The notes under the pieces: generated by a model
The model's database searches: none
Seen by the model: only the letters and a program-made list of their open reading frames with translations
Told to the model about the DNA's origin: nothing
Shown: positions 741 to 34,787 of the stretch, piece by piece
Position numbering within the stretch: the stretch's first letter is position 1
Layout of the letters: every line of letters starts with the position of its first letter
Translations under genes and position numbers: made by a program
NCBI GenBank assembly: GCA_951406725.2
Contig: OX597833.1
Span: 7,254,001 to 7,318,000, forward strand
Direction: 5' to 3'
From: Octopus vulgaris
Lineage: Eukaryota
DNA: 64,000 nt

Positions 741-937
741 GTGACCTCGTGTGTACCGTTGGCGATTTTTTTCCTTCTGTCTTCCCTTCTCTGGATCTTT
801 CCTTCTCCTATGTTTCCGACGAAGAGCTCCGCTCGAAACGTTAAACCCTCCTTCTTTCCTGAACGTCCAATAATACTATATTTGTTCCACGTCCTCGCGT
901 TGTTGTGTTTTTTTGTGCTTTCTTGTTTGGATTAACT
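741..937 (+). mobile_element. Hammerhead-bearing short repeat, family H1
   Basis: High similarity to 6625-6828 and 34585-34787; ends ggattaact followed by (AT)n. Confidence 0.85.
812..846 (+). ncRNA. Minimal type I hammerhead ribozyme motif, U4C core variant
   Basis: gttt-CCGACGA-a-gagc tcc gctc-GAAA-CGT-T-aaac; stems I and II pair, ACGT palindromic stem III. Confidence 0.6.
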
Positions 938-1035
938 ATATATATATATGTATACACACACACATTTGATAGTATATCGTATGATATACACCTGGTAGCT
1001 TACCTGTAAAGCACGTTCACAGAGTGTTCGTTGGG

Positions 1036-1291
1036 TATTTGGTTAATGAGAGACGGAAGATGGAAGATACGAGAATGTTTATTAATTACTAGTATCGATC
1101 CCTCAAGGGTAAGATCTCTAAAAACTGATTTAGGAGTATCCGACGGTGTAGATGTGTCTCTTCGGATACTTCTAAGCCAGTTGTTAGGCATTCCACCTGC
1201 GAGGGATCGATGGTAGATCGGTCGAAACAGTTGTAGTGATTAATAAACATTCTGGTATCTTCTATTTTCCGTCTCACTCATTAATCAAATA
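1036..1291. mobile_element. Fold-back element H3 with degenerate hammerhead in right arm
   Basis: Imperfect inverted arms ~1036-1143 and ~1162-1291; cac-CTG(-)CGA-gg-gatcgat ggtag atcggtc-GAAA-CAGTTG-TA-gtg at 1194-1238. Confidence 0.75.
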
Positions 1292-1404
1292 TATAATATA
1301 TGCATTTATATTACTATTACTATTATTATTATTACTATTATTATTATTATTATTATTATTATTATTATTATTATTATTATTATTATTATTATTATTATTA
1401 TTAT

Positions 1405-1605
1405 TGGCAGAAACGTTAGCACACTGGGCGAAATGTGTAGCCGTATTTCGTCTGCCGTTACGTTCTGAGTTCAAATTCCGCCGAGGTCGACTTTGCCTTT
1501 CATCGTTTCGGGGTCGATAAATTAAGTACCAGTTACGCACTGGAGTCGATATCTGTCCTTGTTTGTCCCCTCTGTGTTTGGCCCCTTGGGGGTAGTAAAG
1601 AAATA
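1405..1605 (+). mobile_element. tRNA-derived SINE, family B
   Basis: tggcagaaacgttagc...gagttcaaattcc...ggtcgactttgcctttcatc; (ATT)n upstream and (AAT)n downstream. Confidence 0.9.
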
Positions 1606-1785
1606 ATAATAATAATAATAATAATAATAATAATAATAATAATTATTATTATTATTATTTGCCCTTTTCTCTGATTCACCTGCATACATGCACTCGCACA
1701 TAAATGCTTGTGAGTATACATACATATATATATGTGTGTGTGCTCGCGCTCGTAATGTATGTATCTCCACATACAGACGTAGATA

Positions 1786-2016
1786 TATTTCTTTACTACC
1801 CAAAAGGGGCTAAACATAGAGGGGACAAACAAGGACAGACAAACGGATTAAGTCGATTACATCGACCCCAGTGCATAACTGGTACTTAATTTCTCGACCC
1901 CGAAAGGATGAAAGGCAAAGTCGACCTCGGCGGAATTTGAACCCAGAACGTAGCGGCAGACGAAATACGGCTACACATTTCGCCCGGTGTGCTAACGTTT
2001 CTGCAAGTTCGCCGCC
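1786..2016 (-). mobile_element. SINE family B, full length
   Basis: Reverse complement of the family B copy at 10153-10383. Confidence 0.9.
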
Positions 2017-2059
2017 TGTAGATAAACGTATGTGTATATGCGTGTATGCATGTATGCGA

Positions 2060-2980
2060 ATATATATATATATATATATATATATATATATATATATATA
2101 TATATATATATATATATATACACACACACACAGCGCACATGTACATATACATACGCATGTGTACATATGTATATATAATACGCTTTTTGTTTCACGAATG
2201 AGAGAAAGATTACTAAATAAATGCTTTAAAGTATATTATTTCAGCTTCATATATATCACACACACACACACACATTCATACACACACACACACTATAATC
2301 CCACACATACGCTCACACATACACTCCACGCACACAGAGAATACCAGGTATGTTTACTGGTCCATAAGTGTCTGGTTGTATGTCGAGGTGTGCGTATCAG
2401 AGTCTATCAGTTGCGTGGATATAAAAACGAATTTGGTATCTCAAACCAGAAATTATTCCGCTGGATCCGAATAATGGAACACTGTGTTAGAAAAGAACAC
2501 CCCTTCTCACCCCACACACGCATGTATACATGTATATATATATATGTATATATACACACATATATATATATATATATGTATATATGTATATATACATATA
2601 CATACATACATACATACATATATATACATATATGTATATATGTATATATATATATACATACATATATATATACATATATACACACACACACACATATATA
2701 TATGTATATATATATATATGTATGCATATGTATATATACATATATATGTGTGTGTATATATGTATATATATATATATATATACATACATATATATATATA
2801 TATATATATGGACGTATATATGTATGTATGCATGCATGTTTGTATGTATGCATGCATGTATGTATGTATGCATGTATGTGTGTGTGTGTGTATGTATGTA
2901 TGTATGTGTGTGTGTGTGTACGTATGTATGTATGTATGTATGTATGTATGTGTGTGTGTGTATGTGTGTATGTATGCATA
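2060..2980. repeat. Compound (TA)n/(CA)n/(TATG)n microsatellites
   Basis: Direct inspection; source of the YI/HT/CM-rich pseudo-ORFs. Confidence 0.95.
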
Positions 2981-31860: not shown

Positions 31861-32139
31861 AAGAATGTCATTATACACAGATAGAAACCACTGATCGCCA
31901 TGCCTCTGCTCATCTACCGCTATTAGCTCTGGGATTCGGTGCTCCCAGAAATCTCCACAAACATCGTTTGAATGGGGCGAAACCACAAAAACGTTCTTCA
32001 CTCCGGATACATCTGCCTTAGATTATAAGGATATTCTGGCATCATTTTAACCAAAATCTGCTCATTGTCGTGTCTTTTGAATCCCAGCCTTATTTGGTCT
32101 TCGGTAACTGGTACATCAATGTAATATCCTTCATACAAT

Positions 32140-32510
32140 GGAGGCGCAATGGCCCAGTGGTTAGGGCAGCGGACTCGCGGTTTCGATTCCCAGACCGGGC
32201 GTTGTGAGCGTTTATTGAGCGAAAGCACCTAAAAGCTCCACGAGGCTCCGGCAGGGATGGTGGTGATCCCTGCTGTACTCTTTCACCACAACTTTCTCTC
32301 ACTCTTACTTCCTGTTTCTGTTGTACCTGTATTTCAAAGGGCCGGCCTTGTCACTCTCTGTGTCACGCTGAATATCCCCGAGAACTACGTTAAGGGTACA
32401 CGTGTCTGTGGAGTGCTCAGCCACTTACACGTTAATTTCACGAGCAGGCTGTTCCGTTGATTCGGATCAACCGGAAACCTCATCGTCGTAACCGACGGAG
32501 TGCTTCCACA
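32140..32510 (+). mobile_element. SINE family A with 13-bp TSD
   Basis: Matches 347-720; TSD atccttca(t/c)acaa at 32126-32138 and 32513-32525. Confidence 0.9.
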
Positions 32511-33585
32511 CAATCCTTCACACAAAATGAGCATTATATTCTTCAGGAAGTACAGATCCCTCTTTCGAACGTCTGCGAATTTCATGTCATCTTCACCGCC
32601 TTCGTCGTCATATTTGTTGTAATTTACGCGGTAGTATTTCGGAATCGTCTATCTTTTCCGACTGGATATCCCACTTCCTTTTTCCTGTCACTTTCCTTCC
32701 TTCTCCTGCTTCCATCACGTCACCTCTCATAGTCACAATACGATAGTCTAGTTGGTTGTGTATAATTGTCTATAGTAAAAATGACAATAATGTATTAACA
32801 CTAACAGATTGATACTGCAAAAACTAAATAATTATTTTACAGCTAGTATTGCTACGGATTTGTATATGTGTTATAAATGTTATACACGCTGGTATTTCAT
32901 CTAAGAGTGTTATATTCACTTTTATATTAATTGCATATATTAATTTAGTTATTACCTGGCTAGCTTTCGCACAGGTTGTTCCGTTTATTGAATTTTACAT
33001 CAGAACAAGCATTTTAGGCTTAGCTTAAAACGTCCTAGGTATTTGTCACTGAAGAATTTGAAGTTAGAGCGCAGTGAGTCGGAACTAAAACCGATTATTC
33101 AGCAATCTAACGATTCTGTCAATTTACCGTTATAACGTTCTGAAGAAGCGAGTTGAAAAAACTAAAGAATTACATTTTCTTAACTATTGAAAAAATAAAA
33201 ATTAAGGTGGTGAGATGTCAAAGAATGTAGCCATTTCTGAAAAGATGTTGATAGATTACCGCTGAGGATGGCAAAAAAGAAAAAGAAGCTCGAGAAAATA
33301 TTGATAATAAGAACTATAAATTTTAGGTAGGTGAGGGTCATTCTCGGAAGACATCTGTTAATCTATTTATACGTGCATTCTAATATATAAATAAATAAAT
33401 AAGTAAATAATAAATAAATAGATAAATAATAATAATAATAATAACAGCAATAATAATAATAATAATAACAACAACAACAACAACAACAACAATAATAATA
33501 ATAATAATAATAATAATAATAATAATAATAATAATAATAATAATAATAATTATTATTATTGTTATTATTATAACAATAACAAATA

Positions 33586-33989
33586 GGCGCAGGAGTGTCT
33601 GTGTGGTAAGTAGCTTGTTTATCAACCACATGGTTCCGGGTTCAGTCCCACTGCGTGGCACCTTGGGCAAGTGTCTTCTACTATTGCCTCGGACCGACCA
33701 AAGCCTTGTGAGTGGATTTGGTAGACGGAAACTGAAAGAAGCCTGTCGTATATATGTATATATATATATGCGTGTGTGTGTTTGTGCGTCTGTGTTTGTC
33801 CCCCTAGCATTGCTTGACAACCGATGCTGGTGTATTTATGTCCCCGCCTTTAGCGGTTCGGCAAAAGAGACCGATAGAATAAGTACTGGGCTTACAAAGA
33901 ATAAGTCCCGGGGTCGAGTTGCTCGATTAAAGGCGGTGCTCCAGGATGGCCGCAGTCAAATGACTGAAACAAGTAAAAGAGTAAAGAGT
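33586..33989 (+). mobile_element. SINE family C, full length
   Basis: Matches 29916-30318. Confidence 0.9.
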
Positions 33990-33994
33990 AATTC

Positions 33995-34170
33995 TTGTAA
34001 TTTTGGCTCAATATCAGCAATTTTCGTAAGAGGGGATTGTCGTTTACATCAGCCACAGTACTTGACTGTTCCTTTATTTTATCGATTCCGAAGGGATAAT
34101 AGGCAATGTCGATCTTAGCGGATTTGAACCCAGAATGTAAAGAGACGGAAGAAATGCCGCTAAGCATTGT
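33995..34170 (-). mobile_element. SINE family B, degraded
   Basis: atttgaacccagaatgtaaagagacggaagaaatgccgctaagcat. Confidence 0.65.
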
Positions 34171-34584
34171 TTCCGAAATTAGACCGAAATTAGTTTGGTT
34201 TTAACAAGATTTCGTGATGTTCATTCTTTTCGTGAGGGCAATGAGCGCCGTAAGTGAAGTGCAATCGGGATCTTAAACCGCATTGCAATCTCTTGTCCTG
34301 TAAAAGATATGAACTACTGAATCAATGAGTTGCCTTTATTAGGGCCCATGTGACTACACAACTGAGAAATATATTTGGGGGAGGTACAGCACACATATCA
34401 TAAAATAACATATATACATATATACATATATATAGATACTTATATACAAAGATGCATGCATGAATGCACACATGTACATATACATGTATGCATACATAGA
34501 TGTTGGATCAATCATCGGTTACATACGCATACACACAGATATAGATAGCTGAATATATAAGTTTATGTGTGTTAGTATATATAT

Positions 34585-34787
34585 CGCGTGTGTACCGTTG
34601 GCGATTTTTTCCTCCGTCTTCCCTTCCTTGAATCTTTCCTTTTCCTATGTTTCTGACGAAGAGCTCCGCTCGAAACGTTAAACCCTCCTTCTTCTTCCTT
34701 CCTTCCTGAGCGTCCAATAACACTATACTTGTTCCACATCCTCGCGTTGTTGTGTTTTCTCTTTGTGTTTTTATGTTTGGATTAACT
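34585..34787 (+). mobile_element. Family H1 copy ending in (TA)n
   Basis: Matches 741-937. Confidence 0.85.
34649..34683 (+). ncRNA. Minimal type I hammerhead ribozyme, canonical core
   Basis: gttt-CTGACGA-a-gagc tcc gctc-GAAA-CGT-T-aaac; predicted cleavage after GUU (34679). Confidence 0.75.

What the first reader, a model, noticed from the sequence alone, without database searches (positions are those of the whole stretch)
741..34787. H1: abundant (TA)n-anchored short repeat carrying a 35-nt minimal hammerhead
Seen: at least five copies (741, 5347, 6625, 30933, 34585; a possible relic at ~11060-11150), all on the + strand. Four share the 3' end ggatt(a/t)act-(AT)n; 5' ends are ragged; no Pol III boxes and no TIRs. 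The motif is gttt-C(T/C)GACGA-A-gagc/gctc-GAAA-CGT-T-aaac. Established: an extra A between A9 and G10.1 occurs naturally in the CChMVd (+) hammerhead and is compatible with activity. Inference: a non-autonomous Penelope-like or retrozyme family retrotransposing into (TA)n at SINE-like density.
Basis: partly seen in the sequence, partly recalled or inferred. Interest (0 to 1): 0.75.

Follow-up and report, generated by a model that had tools for sequence, protein, structure and literature searches.

The report
Penelope retrotransposon tail-ends with minimal hammerhead
These five short repeats sit at TA microsatellites, three carry a complete tiny hammerhead-ribozyme motif, and they are likely the cut-short 3' ends of a very abundant Penelope-like retrotransposon, a known arrangement in animals whose one odd detail is a recurring change in the predicted catalytic core.

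Summary
The repeat is real: five + strand copies of a ~205-nt unit; the 11060-11150 relic is not a member. Only 3 of 5 copies hold the whole 35-nt motif, and only 1 has the textbook CUGA core; two have U4C. The motif fits the published metazoan Penelope-like-element (PLE) minimal hammerhead, extra A included, and closely matches the Acropora Neptune example. In metagenome loci with the same stem II, 5 of 119 have a PLE endonuclease frame upstream in sense. (TA)n lies 3' of 4 of 5 copies and 5' of 4 of 5, which suggests insertion into TA arrays. Depth in public contigs implies roughly 10^4-10^5 copies. Best reading: 5'-truncated 3' ends (solo pLTRs) of a probably Neptune-type PLE. 'Non-autonomous' is unproven, a retrozyme is unlikely, and the parent ORF was not found. 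One detail may be new: U4C also marks a whole subfamily of the coral-like relatives (42 of 88 distinct copies), which fits a report that hammerhead cleavage is not needed for insertion in vitro. Verdict: new member of a known kind.

The parts
739..938 (+). Copy 1, longest class (about 200 nt); 3' end runs into (TA)6, 5' flank AT-rich but not (TA)n
   Evidence: 96% ungapped identity to copy 3
812..846 (+). Minimal type I hammerhead motif with U4C core (CCGACGA), extra A, 4-bp stem II, palindromic ACGT at 15.1-16.1, 4-bp stem I
   Evidence: descriptor hit at 816
5347..5456 (+). Copy 2, 5'-truncated at hammerhead position 15, 3-5 nt upstream of the predicted scissile bond (5351/5352); long (TA)n on both sides
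6622..6828 (+). Copy 3, longest class, same 5' start as copy 1; (TA)n on both sides
   Evidence: laid on public contigs
6695..6729 (+). Minimal type I hammerhead motif with U4C core
   Evidence: descriptor hit at 6699
30934..31044 (+). Copy 4, diverged (68-70% to the others), 5'-truncated inside the core; short (TA)n 5', (AC)n 3'
34587..34787 (+). Copy 5, near full length, 89-90% to copies 1 and 3; (TA)n on both sides
34649..34683 (+). Minimal type I hammerhead motif with consensus core CUGACGA; predicted scissile bond 34679/34680 (GUU triplet)
   Evidence: descriptor hit at 34653; numbering as in PMC4209133

Best explanation
The five repeats are likely the 5'-truncated 3' ends (solo pseudo-LTRs) of a very high-copy, endonuclease-bearing Penelope-like retrotransposon, probably of the Neptune clade, which would insert into existing (TA)n arrays. 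Shown: a dispersed family with a common 3' end, variable 5' ends, (TA)n on one or both sides, and a motif that fits the published PLE minimal hammerhead. Inferred mechanism: the element's GIY-YIG endonuclease nicks a TA array; its reverse transcriptase starts at a fixed site about 100-110 nt downstream of the hammerhead on uncleaved RNA and usually stops within about 200 nt, joining back to the TA array. The hammerhead lacks helix III, so it would cleave only as a dimer through the ACGU palindrome or with protein help, weakly, and more weakly with U4C. Cleavage is probably not needed for a copy to insert.
For: Motif: all four hallmarks that PMC4209133 lists or describes for metazoan PLE minimal hammerheads are present (extra nucleotide 9/10.1, G10.1-C11.1, palindromic 15.2-16.2, short helix I). 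Its Fig. S3 row for an Acropora digitifera Neptune has the same CUGACGAA core and a near-identical 4-bp stem II, and GUU triplets are common in that figure. Relatives: of 119 metagenome loci with the same core and stem II (only 80 with long flanks), 5 (L008, L016, L036, L051, L102) have a PLE endonuclease-region match upstream in sense and 2 (L009, L044) a short antisense one. L036 also has RVT_1. L036 and L008 show a CX2-5CxxC linker, which PMC8557442 ties to Neptune/Nematis and to simple-repeat bias. Spacing: in the coral-like loci the ORF ends about 90 nt before the core; our longest copies reach 77 nt before it. Target: (TA)4 or longer lies within 6 nt 3' of 4 of 5 copies, 5' of 4 of 5, both sides of 3 of 5, against a 6% background per side (p 6e-5, 6e-5, 5e-4; boundaries set by eye). 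Loose ends of other copies also run into TA in 2 of the 5 shown rows at 6802-6803 (X1, X10); 3 do not clearly. Uncleaved template: all five copies include bases upstream of the scissile position, and PMC11167929 found catalytic mutants did not affect insertion in vitro. Constraint: 1 of 35 motif columns varies among the three complete copies against 22 of 152 flank columns (one-sided Fisher p 0.043).
Against: The parent ORF of this family was not found: no genome is held, there is no PLE-like frame in the window, and a peptide search from the element's 5' frame found nothing. Similarity to the PLE-linked relatives covers only the 28-31 nt motif, so the clade is assigned by analogy. None of the five copies has the partial tandem or adjacent inverted copy typical of PLEs, whereas 25 of 119 metagenome loci have an inverted motif piece upstream. 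The coral-like family is not TA-associated (3 of 108 loci). Two copies share one 5' start, which a defined short element would also give. The conservation test rests on three copies and is marginal. The motif does not fold better than shuffles (z -0.4 to -1.0), and Rfam gives no hammerhead hit.
Confidence: 0.66

Rival explanations
1. A self-standing non-autonomous element of about 205 nt, derived from a PLE pseudo-LTR, with its own defined 5' end. It is transcribed by read-through or from a pLTR promoter and mobilised in trans by a TA-targeting PLE.
For: Copies 741 and 6625 start at the same ATGTGACC and 34585 starts about 8 nt inside. No copy in the window extends further. Very high depth. 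Putatively non-autonomous PLE derivatives with 3' similarity to autonomous families are described for Chlamys.
Against: One RNA-guess run shows a different sequence just upstream of 6650 (6 contigs), so the 5' end is not single. A control family that includes ORF-bearing members also consists mainly of very short solo copies. Depth near the 5' end (0.66 million) is lower than near the 3' end (2.5 million) in X1, though edge effects and skipped repeats blur this.
Confidence: 0.22
2. A non-LTR retrozyme: dispersed monomers shed from tandem arrays elsewhere, copied through self-cleaved circular RNA.
For: The unit length falls in the 150-450 bp range. Dispersed monomers of retrozyme families are common, and retrozymes are argued to derive from pLTRs (bioRxiv 10.64898/2026.07.22.740005). 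The rest of the genome could not be inspected.
Against: 0 of 5 copies are tandem. No head-to-tail joint among the 15 of 38 joints shown. Retrozymes are described with canonical hammerheads and minimal ones with PLEs. A fixed 3' end about 100 nt from the ribozyme with 5' truncation does not fit permuted circles. U4C is in 2 of 3 complete cores.
Confidence: 0.06
3. A SINE-like or LINE 3'-tail repeat whose (TA)n is a slippage tail and whose hammerhead-like string is incidental.
For: The window is rich in SINE-like repeats and (TA)n (171 arrays). The motif has no unusual folding stability. No cleavage was tested.
Against: Descriptor background is 0.03 per window. The same core and stem II sit downstream of PLE frames in other organisms. 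(TA)n is also 5' of 4 of 5 copies. No tRNA-like head or exact Pol III box.
Confidence: 0.06

Closest known systems
Metazoan PLE minimal hammerheads (min-HHR), Cervera and De la Pena 2014, PMC4209133; closest row: Acropora digitifera Neptune pLTR
   Same: Type I core with an extra nucleotide between 9 and 10.1, G10.1-C11.1, no helix III, palindromic A-C-G-U, 3-5 bp helix I, pyrimidine-rich 5' flank, thousands of mostly solo copies per genome.
   Different: U4C in 2 of 3 complete copies; none of the rows read in their Fig. S3 has C at position 4. No cephalopod row. 3-nt loop 2. Strong TA association, absent in the coral-like family. Parent ORF not seen.
[quoted passage not shown] 2021, PMC8557442)
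   Same: Hammerhead near the 3' end, 5' truncation, simple-repeat target bias.
   Different: RT, GIY-YIG and the CX2-5CxxC linker could not be tested for this family; no partial tandem or inverted copy among five.
Naiad PLEs, including Naiad_Ovul and Naiad_Obim (PMC8557442)
   Same: (TA)n insertion preference; copy numbers of tens of thousands in some invertebrates.
   Different: Naiads lack canonical hammerheads and are described as old remnants in cephalopods. None of four 12-mers and two 11-mers of this element occurs in the paper's supplement, which holds the consensus DNA.
Non-LTR retrozymes of animals (PMC7229834; bioRxiv 10.64898/2026.07.22.740005)
   Same: Short non-coding unit with a type I hammerhead; argued to derive from pLTRs.
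   Different: No tandem arrangement seen, minimal rather than canonical ribozyme, fixed 3' end and 5' truncation.
PAc, Poseidon element of Anolis (Frangieh et al. 2024, PMC11167929)
   Same: Model for the mechanism: AT-rich target, internal RT start sites, protein-assisted hammerhead that is dispensable for insertion in vitro.
   Different: Different clade; there the ORF starts inside the hammerhead, here no start codon follows it; no sequence comparison was made.

Membership tests
Metazoan PLE min-HHR | Core CUGANGA...GAAA...UH | tested here: inconclusive
   Met in 34585; U4C in 741 and 6625; incomplete in 5347 and 30933.
Metazoan PLE min-HHR | Extra nucleotide between 9 and 10.1 and G10.1-C11.1 pair | tested here: met
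   3 of 3 complete copies; feature list.
Metazoan PLE min-HHR | No helix III; palindromic 15.1-16.1 allowing a dimer; short helix I | tested here: met
   ACGT palindrome and 4-bp helix I in 3 of 3.
Metazoan PLE min-HHR | Self-cleavage as dimer or with protein | not testable with these tools
   Needs an in vitro assay.
EN+ Penelope-like element | Single ORF with PLE-type RT and GIY-YIG endonuclease upstream of the 3' pLTR | tested here: inconclusive
   None in the window; no genome; present upstream of the same motif in 5 of 119 loci of other organisms.
EN+ Penelope-like element | Fixed 3' end with frequent 5' truncation | tested here: met
   4 of 5 share the 3' end; four different 5' starts among five copies.
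EN+ Penelope-like element | Partial tandem (pLTR) or adjacent inverted 5'-truncated copy | tested here: inconclusive
   0 of 5 copies; typical of only part of the insertions (25 of 119 control loci show an inverted motif piece).
Neptune clade | CX2-5CxxC linker before a C-terminal GIY-YIG | not testable with these tools
   No ORF of this family in hand; seen in L036 and L008 only.
Neptune clade | Bias for simple-repeat, (TA)n, targets | tested here: met
   4 of 5 each side, 3 of 5 both sides; shared with Naiads, so not diagnostic.
Naiad clade | Lack of a canonical hammerhead; N-terminal endonuclease | tested here: not met
   A complete min-HHR is present; no match to the published consensus set by short words; domain order untested.
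Non-LTR retrozyme | Tandem 150-450 bp repeats, each with a hammerhead | tested here: not met
   0 of 5 tandem; no head-to-tail joint among 15 of 38 shown; rest of genome unseen.
Non-LTR retrozyme | Canonical type I hammerhead (6-bp helix I, short helix III) | tested here: not met
   Helix I 4 bp, no helix III.
Non-LTR retrozyme | Abundant circular RNA | not testable with these tools
   Only contigs were available.
tRNA/5S-derived SINE | Pol III A and B boxes in a structural-RNA-derived head | tested here: not met
   No exact box; one-mismatch B-like hits are mostly the hammerhead's own bases (recalled patterns); ARAGORN 0; Rfam none at 34590-34785.

The most novel reading that the evidence does not exclude
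A Pol III-free element of about 205 nt with its own 5' end, copied to around 10^5 TA sites by a Neptune enzyme, whose hammerhead has fixed U4C in an expanding subfamily. The same change marks a whole subfamily of a distant coral-like Neptune. The minimal hammerhead would then be kept mainly as a fold that the PLE protein recognises, not as a self-cleaver, and searches that demand CUGA would miss about half of such motifs.
Probability: 0.17. Interest if true: 0.6.

Novelty: new member of a known kind. Interest (0 to 1): 0.3.

Why it matters
As a class this is known: PLE minimal hammerheads occur by the thousand in animal genomes, and TA targeting by PLEs is described. What it adds is a very high-copy family in a lineage where my searches found no hammerhead description, and a natural experiment on an open question, namely what the PLE hammerhead is for. 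Sister subfamilies with U4 and C4 cores, in two unrelated animals, allow a direct comparison of cleavage rate, protein binding and copy success.

Tried and rejected
Whole-genome search: no genome held. The repeat finder was swamped by microsatellites. Rfam: no hammerhead among the 150 of 445 rows shown for the window, none for 34590-34785 or 55500-55780. Family-specific patterns found 0 loci in viral contigs, metagenome contigs and genome contigs. The open frame CDLVC...SKR across the 5' half was considered as an ORF end: no homologue among 71-2000 aa proteins, and the frame is broken by T-run indels between copies, so it was rejected. Host gene and orientation bias: 207 masked frames of 55 aa or more gave only the RT of a LINE fragment and one weak DUF hit, so no intron context could be set. 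Host identity: the LINE frame's homologues carry almost no names and run labels are coded. 'Octopus-like' is my recall from the microsatellite load, the SINE-like repeats and the 2.3-3.8 billion letters of the largest runs; no call shows it. Expression: no RNA holder listed on record; two runs guessed to be RNA hold the repeat, but this is not counted as evidence. Empty-site test in a second organism: the contigs did not bridge the TA arrays. The 11060-11150 relic was rejected as a member. The idea that copy 5347 is a cleavage product was rejected, since it starts 3-5 nt upstream of the bond (my note said 4-6; recounted). Earlier scan findings: four look-ups returned nothing. Short words of the element are absent from paper full texts and from three papers' supplements; only one of these supplements is known to hold consensus DNA.
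Full report
OBSERVATION. Reading the four regions and searching the window with the 6620-6830 copy gave five homologous stretches, all on +: 739-938, 5347-5456, 6622-6828, 30934-31044 and 34587-34787. A profile built from all five found no sixth copy (next E 0.19), so the proposed relic at 11060-11150 is not a member. Ungapped identities are 96% (741 vs 6625), 88-93% among the other young pairs and 68-70% for 30933. Four copies end in GGATT(A/T)ACT and TA repeats; 30933 stops about 15 nt earlier at (AC)n. 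Two copies start at the same ATGTGACC, one about 8 nt inside, and two inside the motif. There are no TIRs and no exact Pol III boxes (recalled patterns), and no tRNA. Five of five on one strand has p 0.0625.

THE MOTIF. A type I hammerhead descriptor hit 816, 6699 and 34653 on + and an unrelated site at 55665 on -, against 0.03 hits per shuffled window (100 shuffles). The 35-nt motif reads helix I GUUU/AAAC, core C-Y-GACGA, an extra A, helix II GAGC-UCC-GCUC, GAAA, C-G-U-U. There is no helix III, and A-C-G-U is a palindrome. Only 3 of 5 copies hold all of it and only 34585 has U at core position 4. It does not fold better than shuffles and Rfam misses it. Among the three complete copies 1 of 35 motif columns varies against 22 of 152 ungapped flank columns (one-sided p 0.043); the one varying column is position 4.

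TARGET. A run of four or more TA lies within 6 nt downstream of 4 of 5 copies, upstream of 4 of 5 and on both sides of 3 of 5. The background is 6% per side and 3.7% for both (p 6e-5, 6e-5, 5e-4; boundaries were set by eye after seeing the alignment). TA on both sides points to insertion into an existing array, not a slippage tail (inference). All five copies keep bases upstream of the predicted scissile bond; the shortest, 5347, starts 3-5 nt before it. The copied RNA was therefore probably not cut there.

ABUNDANCE. No genome was held. Twenty of 24 listed public runs, from 10 studies and four coded organisms, hold part of 6000-7100. I laid four of the 24. Summed contig depth over the element reached 6.6 million (X1, organism A) and 5.6 million (X4, organism C), against about 35 for a near-identical flank contig in X1; I used the same 35 for X4. 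The tool warns that this is no copy number. Dividing with and without a 31-fold word-overlap factor brackets about 5,000 to 190,000 copies; five per 64 kb agrees with the upper part if the window is typical. The family is present in at least two organisms. A C-to-T row at 6700 (position 4) is not among the 40 of 112 difference rows shown, all of which reach about 43% or more in some run. C4 is therefore probably common family-wide, but the selection rule is unstated and this is only a hint. C4-G5 is a CpG, so U4 could be ancestral or a reversion.

RELATIVES. Exact family patterns found nothing in three collections. Cores were CTGACGA 56, CCGACGA 47, CTGATGA 14 and CCGATGA 2. 102 of 119 form one family that matches, by eye, the Acropora digitifera Neptune row of Fig. 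S3 in PMC4209133; I call it coral-like on that basis. Five loci (L008, L016, L051, L036, L102) have a PLE endonuclease-region match upstream in sense, and two (L009, L044) have a short antisense match. L036 has RVT_1, although Pfam did not name the endonuclease frames. L036 and L008 show CX2-5CxxC. In this control family 65 of 93 loci align for 30 nt or less upstream of the core and 13 for more than 200 nt (two references only, duplicate loci not removed). Short solo copies are thus the norm in a family with ORF-bearing members. The family is not TA-associated (3 of 108), and its similarity to our element is limited to the motif.

U4C. In the coral-like family 42 of 88 distinct copies have C4, tightly linked to diagnostic bases downstream (best p 3e-20; 56 of 57 concordant at one site). 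C4 was therefore inherited from source elements and did not arise by scattered decay; the subfamilies may also be different host species. PMC3088659 notes a natural viroid U4C variant with much lower in vitro activity that remains infectious. PMC11167929 reports that a PLE hammerhead cleaves only with the PLE protein and that catalytic mutants do not affect insertion in vitro. A full-text search for hammerhead ribozyme, U4C and core returned only PMC3088659. None of the Fig. S3 rows I read has C4, so I found no report of U4C in PLE hammerheads in this library, which lacks most subscription papers.

MECHANISM AND RIVALS. Best reading (0.66): 5'-truncated 3' ends of an EN+ PLE, probably Neptune. 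The inferred steps are a nick in (TA)n, reverse transcription from a fixed site about 100-110 nt 3' of the hammerhead on uncleaved RNA, and early termination. The parent ORF was not found, which is the main gap. A non-autonomous 205-nt derivative (0.22) is favoured by the shared 5' start of two copies and weakened by a different upstream sequence in six contigs of X8. A retrozyme (0.06) lacks tandem copies, a canonical ribozyme and any head-to-tail joint among 15 of 38 shown. An incidental motif in a SINE-like repeat (0.06) is contradicted.

KNOWN KIND. PMC4209133 describes this ribozyme form in PLE pLTRs, thousands per genome, mostly single, inactive as monomer and weak as dimer. PMC8557442 ties simple-repeat bias to Neptune and Naiad and notes that Naiads lack canonical hammerheads. 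Short words of our element are absent from its supplement (DNA is line-wrapped there). PLEs make up 6.83% of the O. vulgaris genome in 190 families, which is relevant only if my recalled guess of an octopus-like host is right; no call establishes the host. A search for hammerhead ribozyme with cephalopod listed two papers; in the passages I read of one there is no such family, and the other I saw only as a listing. It works like a PLE pLTR with a min-HHR; membership of Neptune is likely but untested.

PAPERS SEEN. PMC4209133: parts 1-2 of 4 of the text, supplement parts 1-2 of 3. PMC8557442: passages, introduction, supplement searches. PMC11167929: parts 1-2 of 4. PMC3088659: passages and section 8. 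PMC7229834: passages. bioRxiv 10.64898/2026.07.22.740005: part 1 of 5 and passages. PMC13282606: passages and a supplement search. PMC8967140: supplement search only. PMC12602865: passages, nothing used. The CChMVd extra-A paper was seen only as cited in PMC4209133.

VERDICT. A real and very abundant family, best filed as a new member of a known kind. Interest 0.3; the U4C recurrence is the part worth testing.

Noticed in passing
window 55595-55672 (-), within a unit 55420-55785: A second, unrelated hammerhead of canonical type I form: 7-bp helix I, CUGACGA core, long helix II, palindromic helix III (C-UCGA-G), GUA triplet. It lies in a unit of about 370 nt with (TA)n on both sides; single copy in the window; fold z -2.6; no Rfam hit. 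Likely another TA-inserted PLE end or a retrozyme monomer, and a better candidate for activity than the family studied.
   Followed up: partly
window 11100-11140 (+): Hammerhead-like remnant (CGAAGAA ... GAAACGTC) that fails the descriptor and has no homology to the family; possibly a decayed motif of a third family.
   Followed up: partly
metagenome loci L001-L119 (coral-like family): About half of the copies carry U4C, linked to subfamily-diagnostic bases; 25 of 119 have an inverted piece of the motif within 80 nt upstream, so inversion and truncation points cluster at the hammerhead.
   Followed up: partly
window 21691-23156 (-): LINE fragment with two RT frames (RVT_1); closest proteins 70-85% identical, almost all unnamed. 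RTE-like by recall.
   Followed up: partly
window 1406-1550 and more than 15 other places; 29916-30299, 33579-33971, 36469-36637, 45462-45624; 346-721 and 32139-32501: Three other dispersed SINE-like families, one denser than the family studied and on both strands.
   Followed up: no
window 6000-6180: Another very high-copy repeat (summed depth about 1 million in two runs) that has no second copy in the masked self-comparison.
   Followed up: no
window 11240-11540 (-) and 16531-16600 (+): Frames that read like mariner transposase remnants by recall; no Pfam hit.
   Followed up: no
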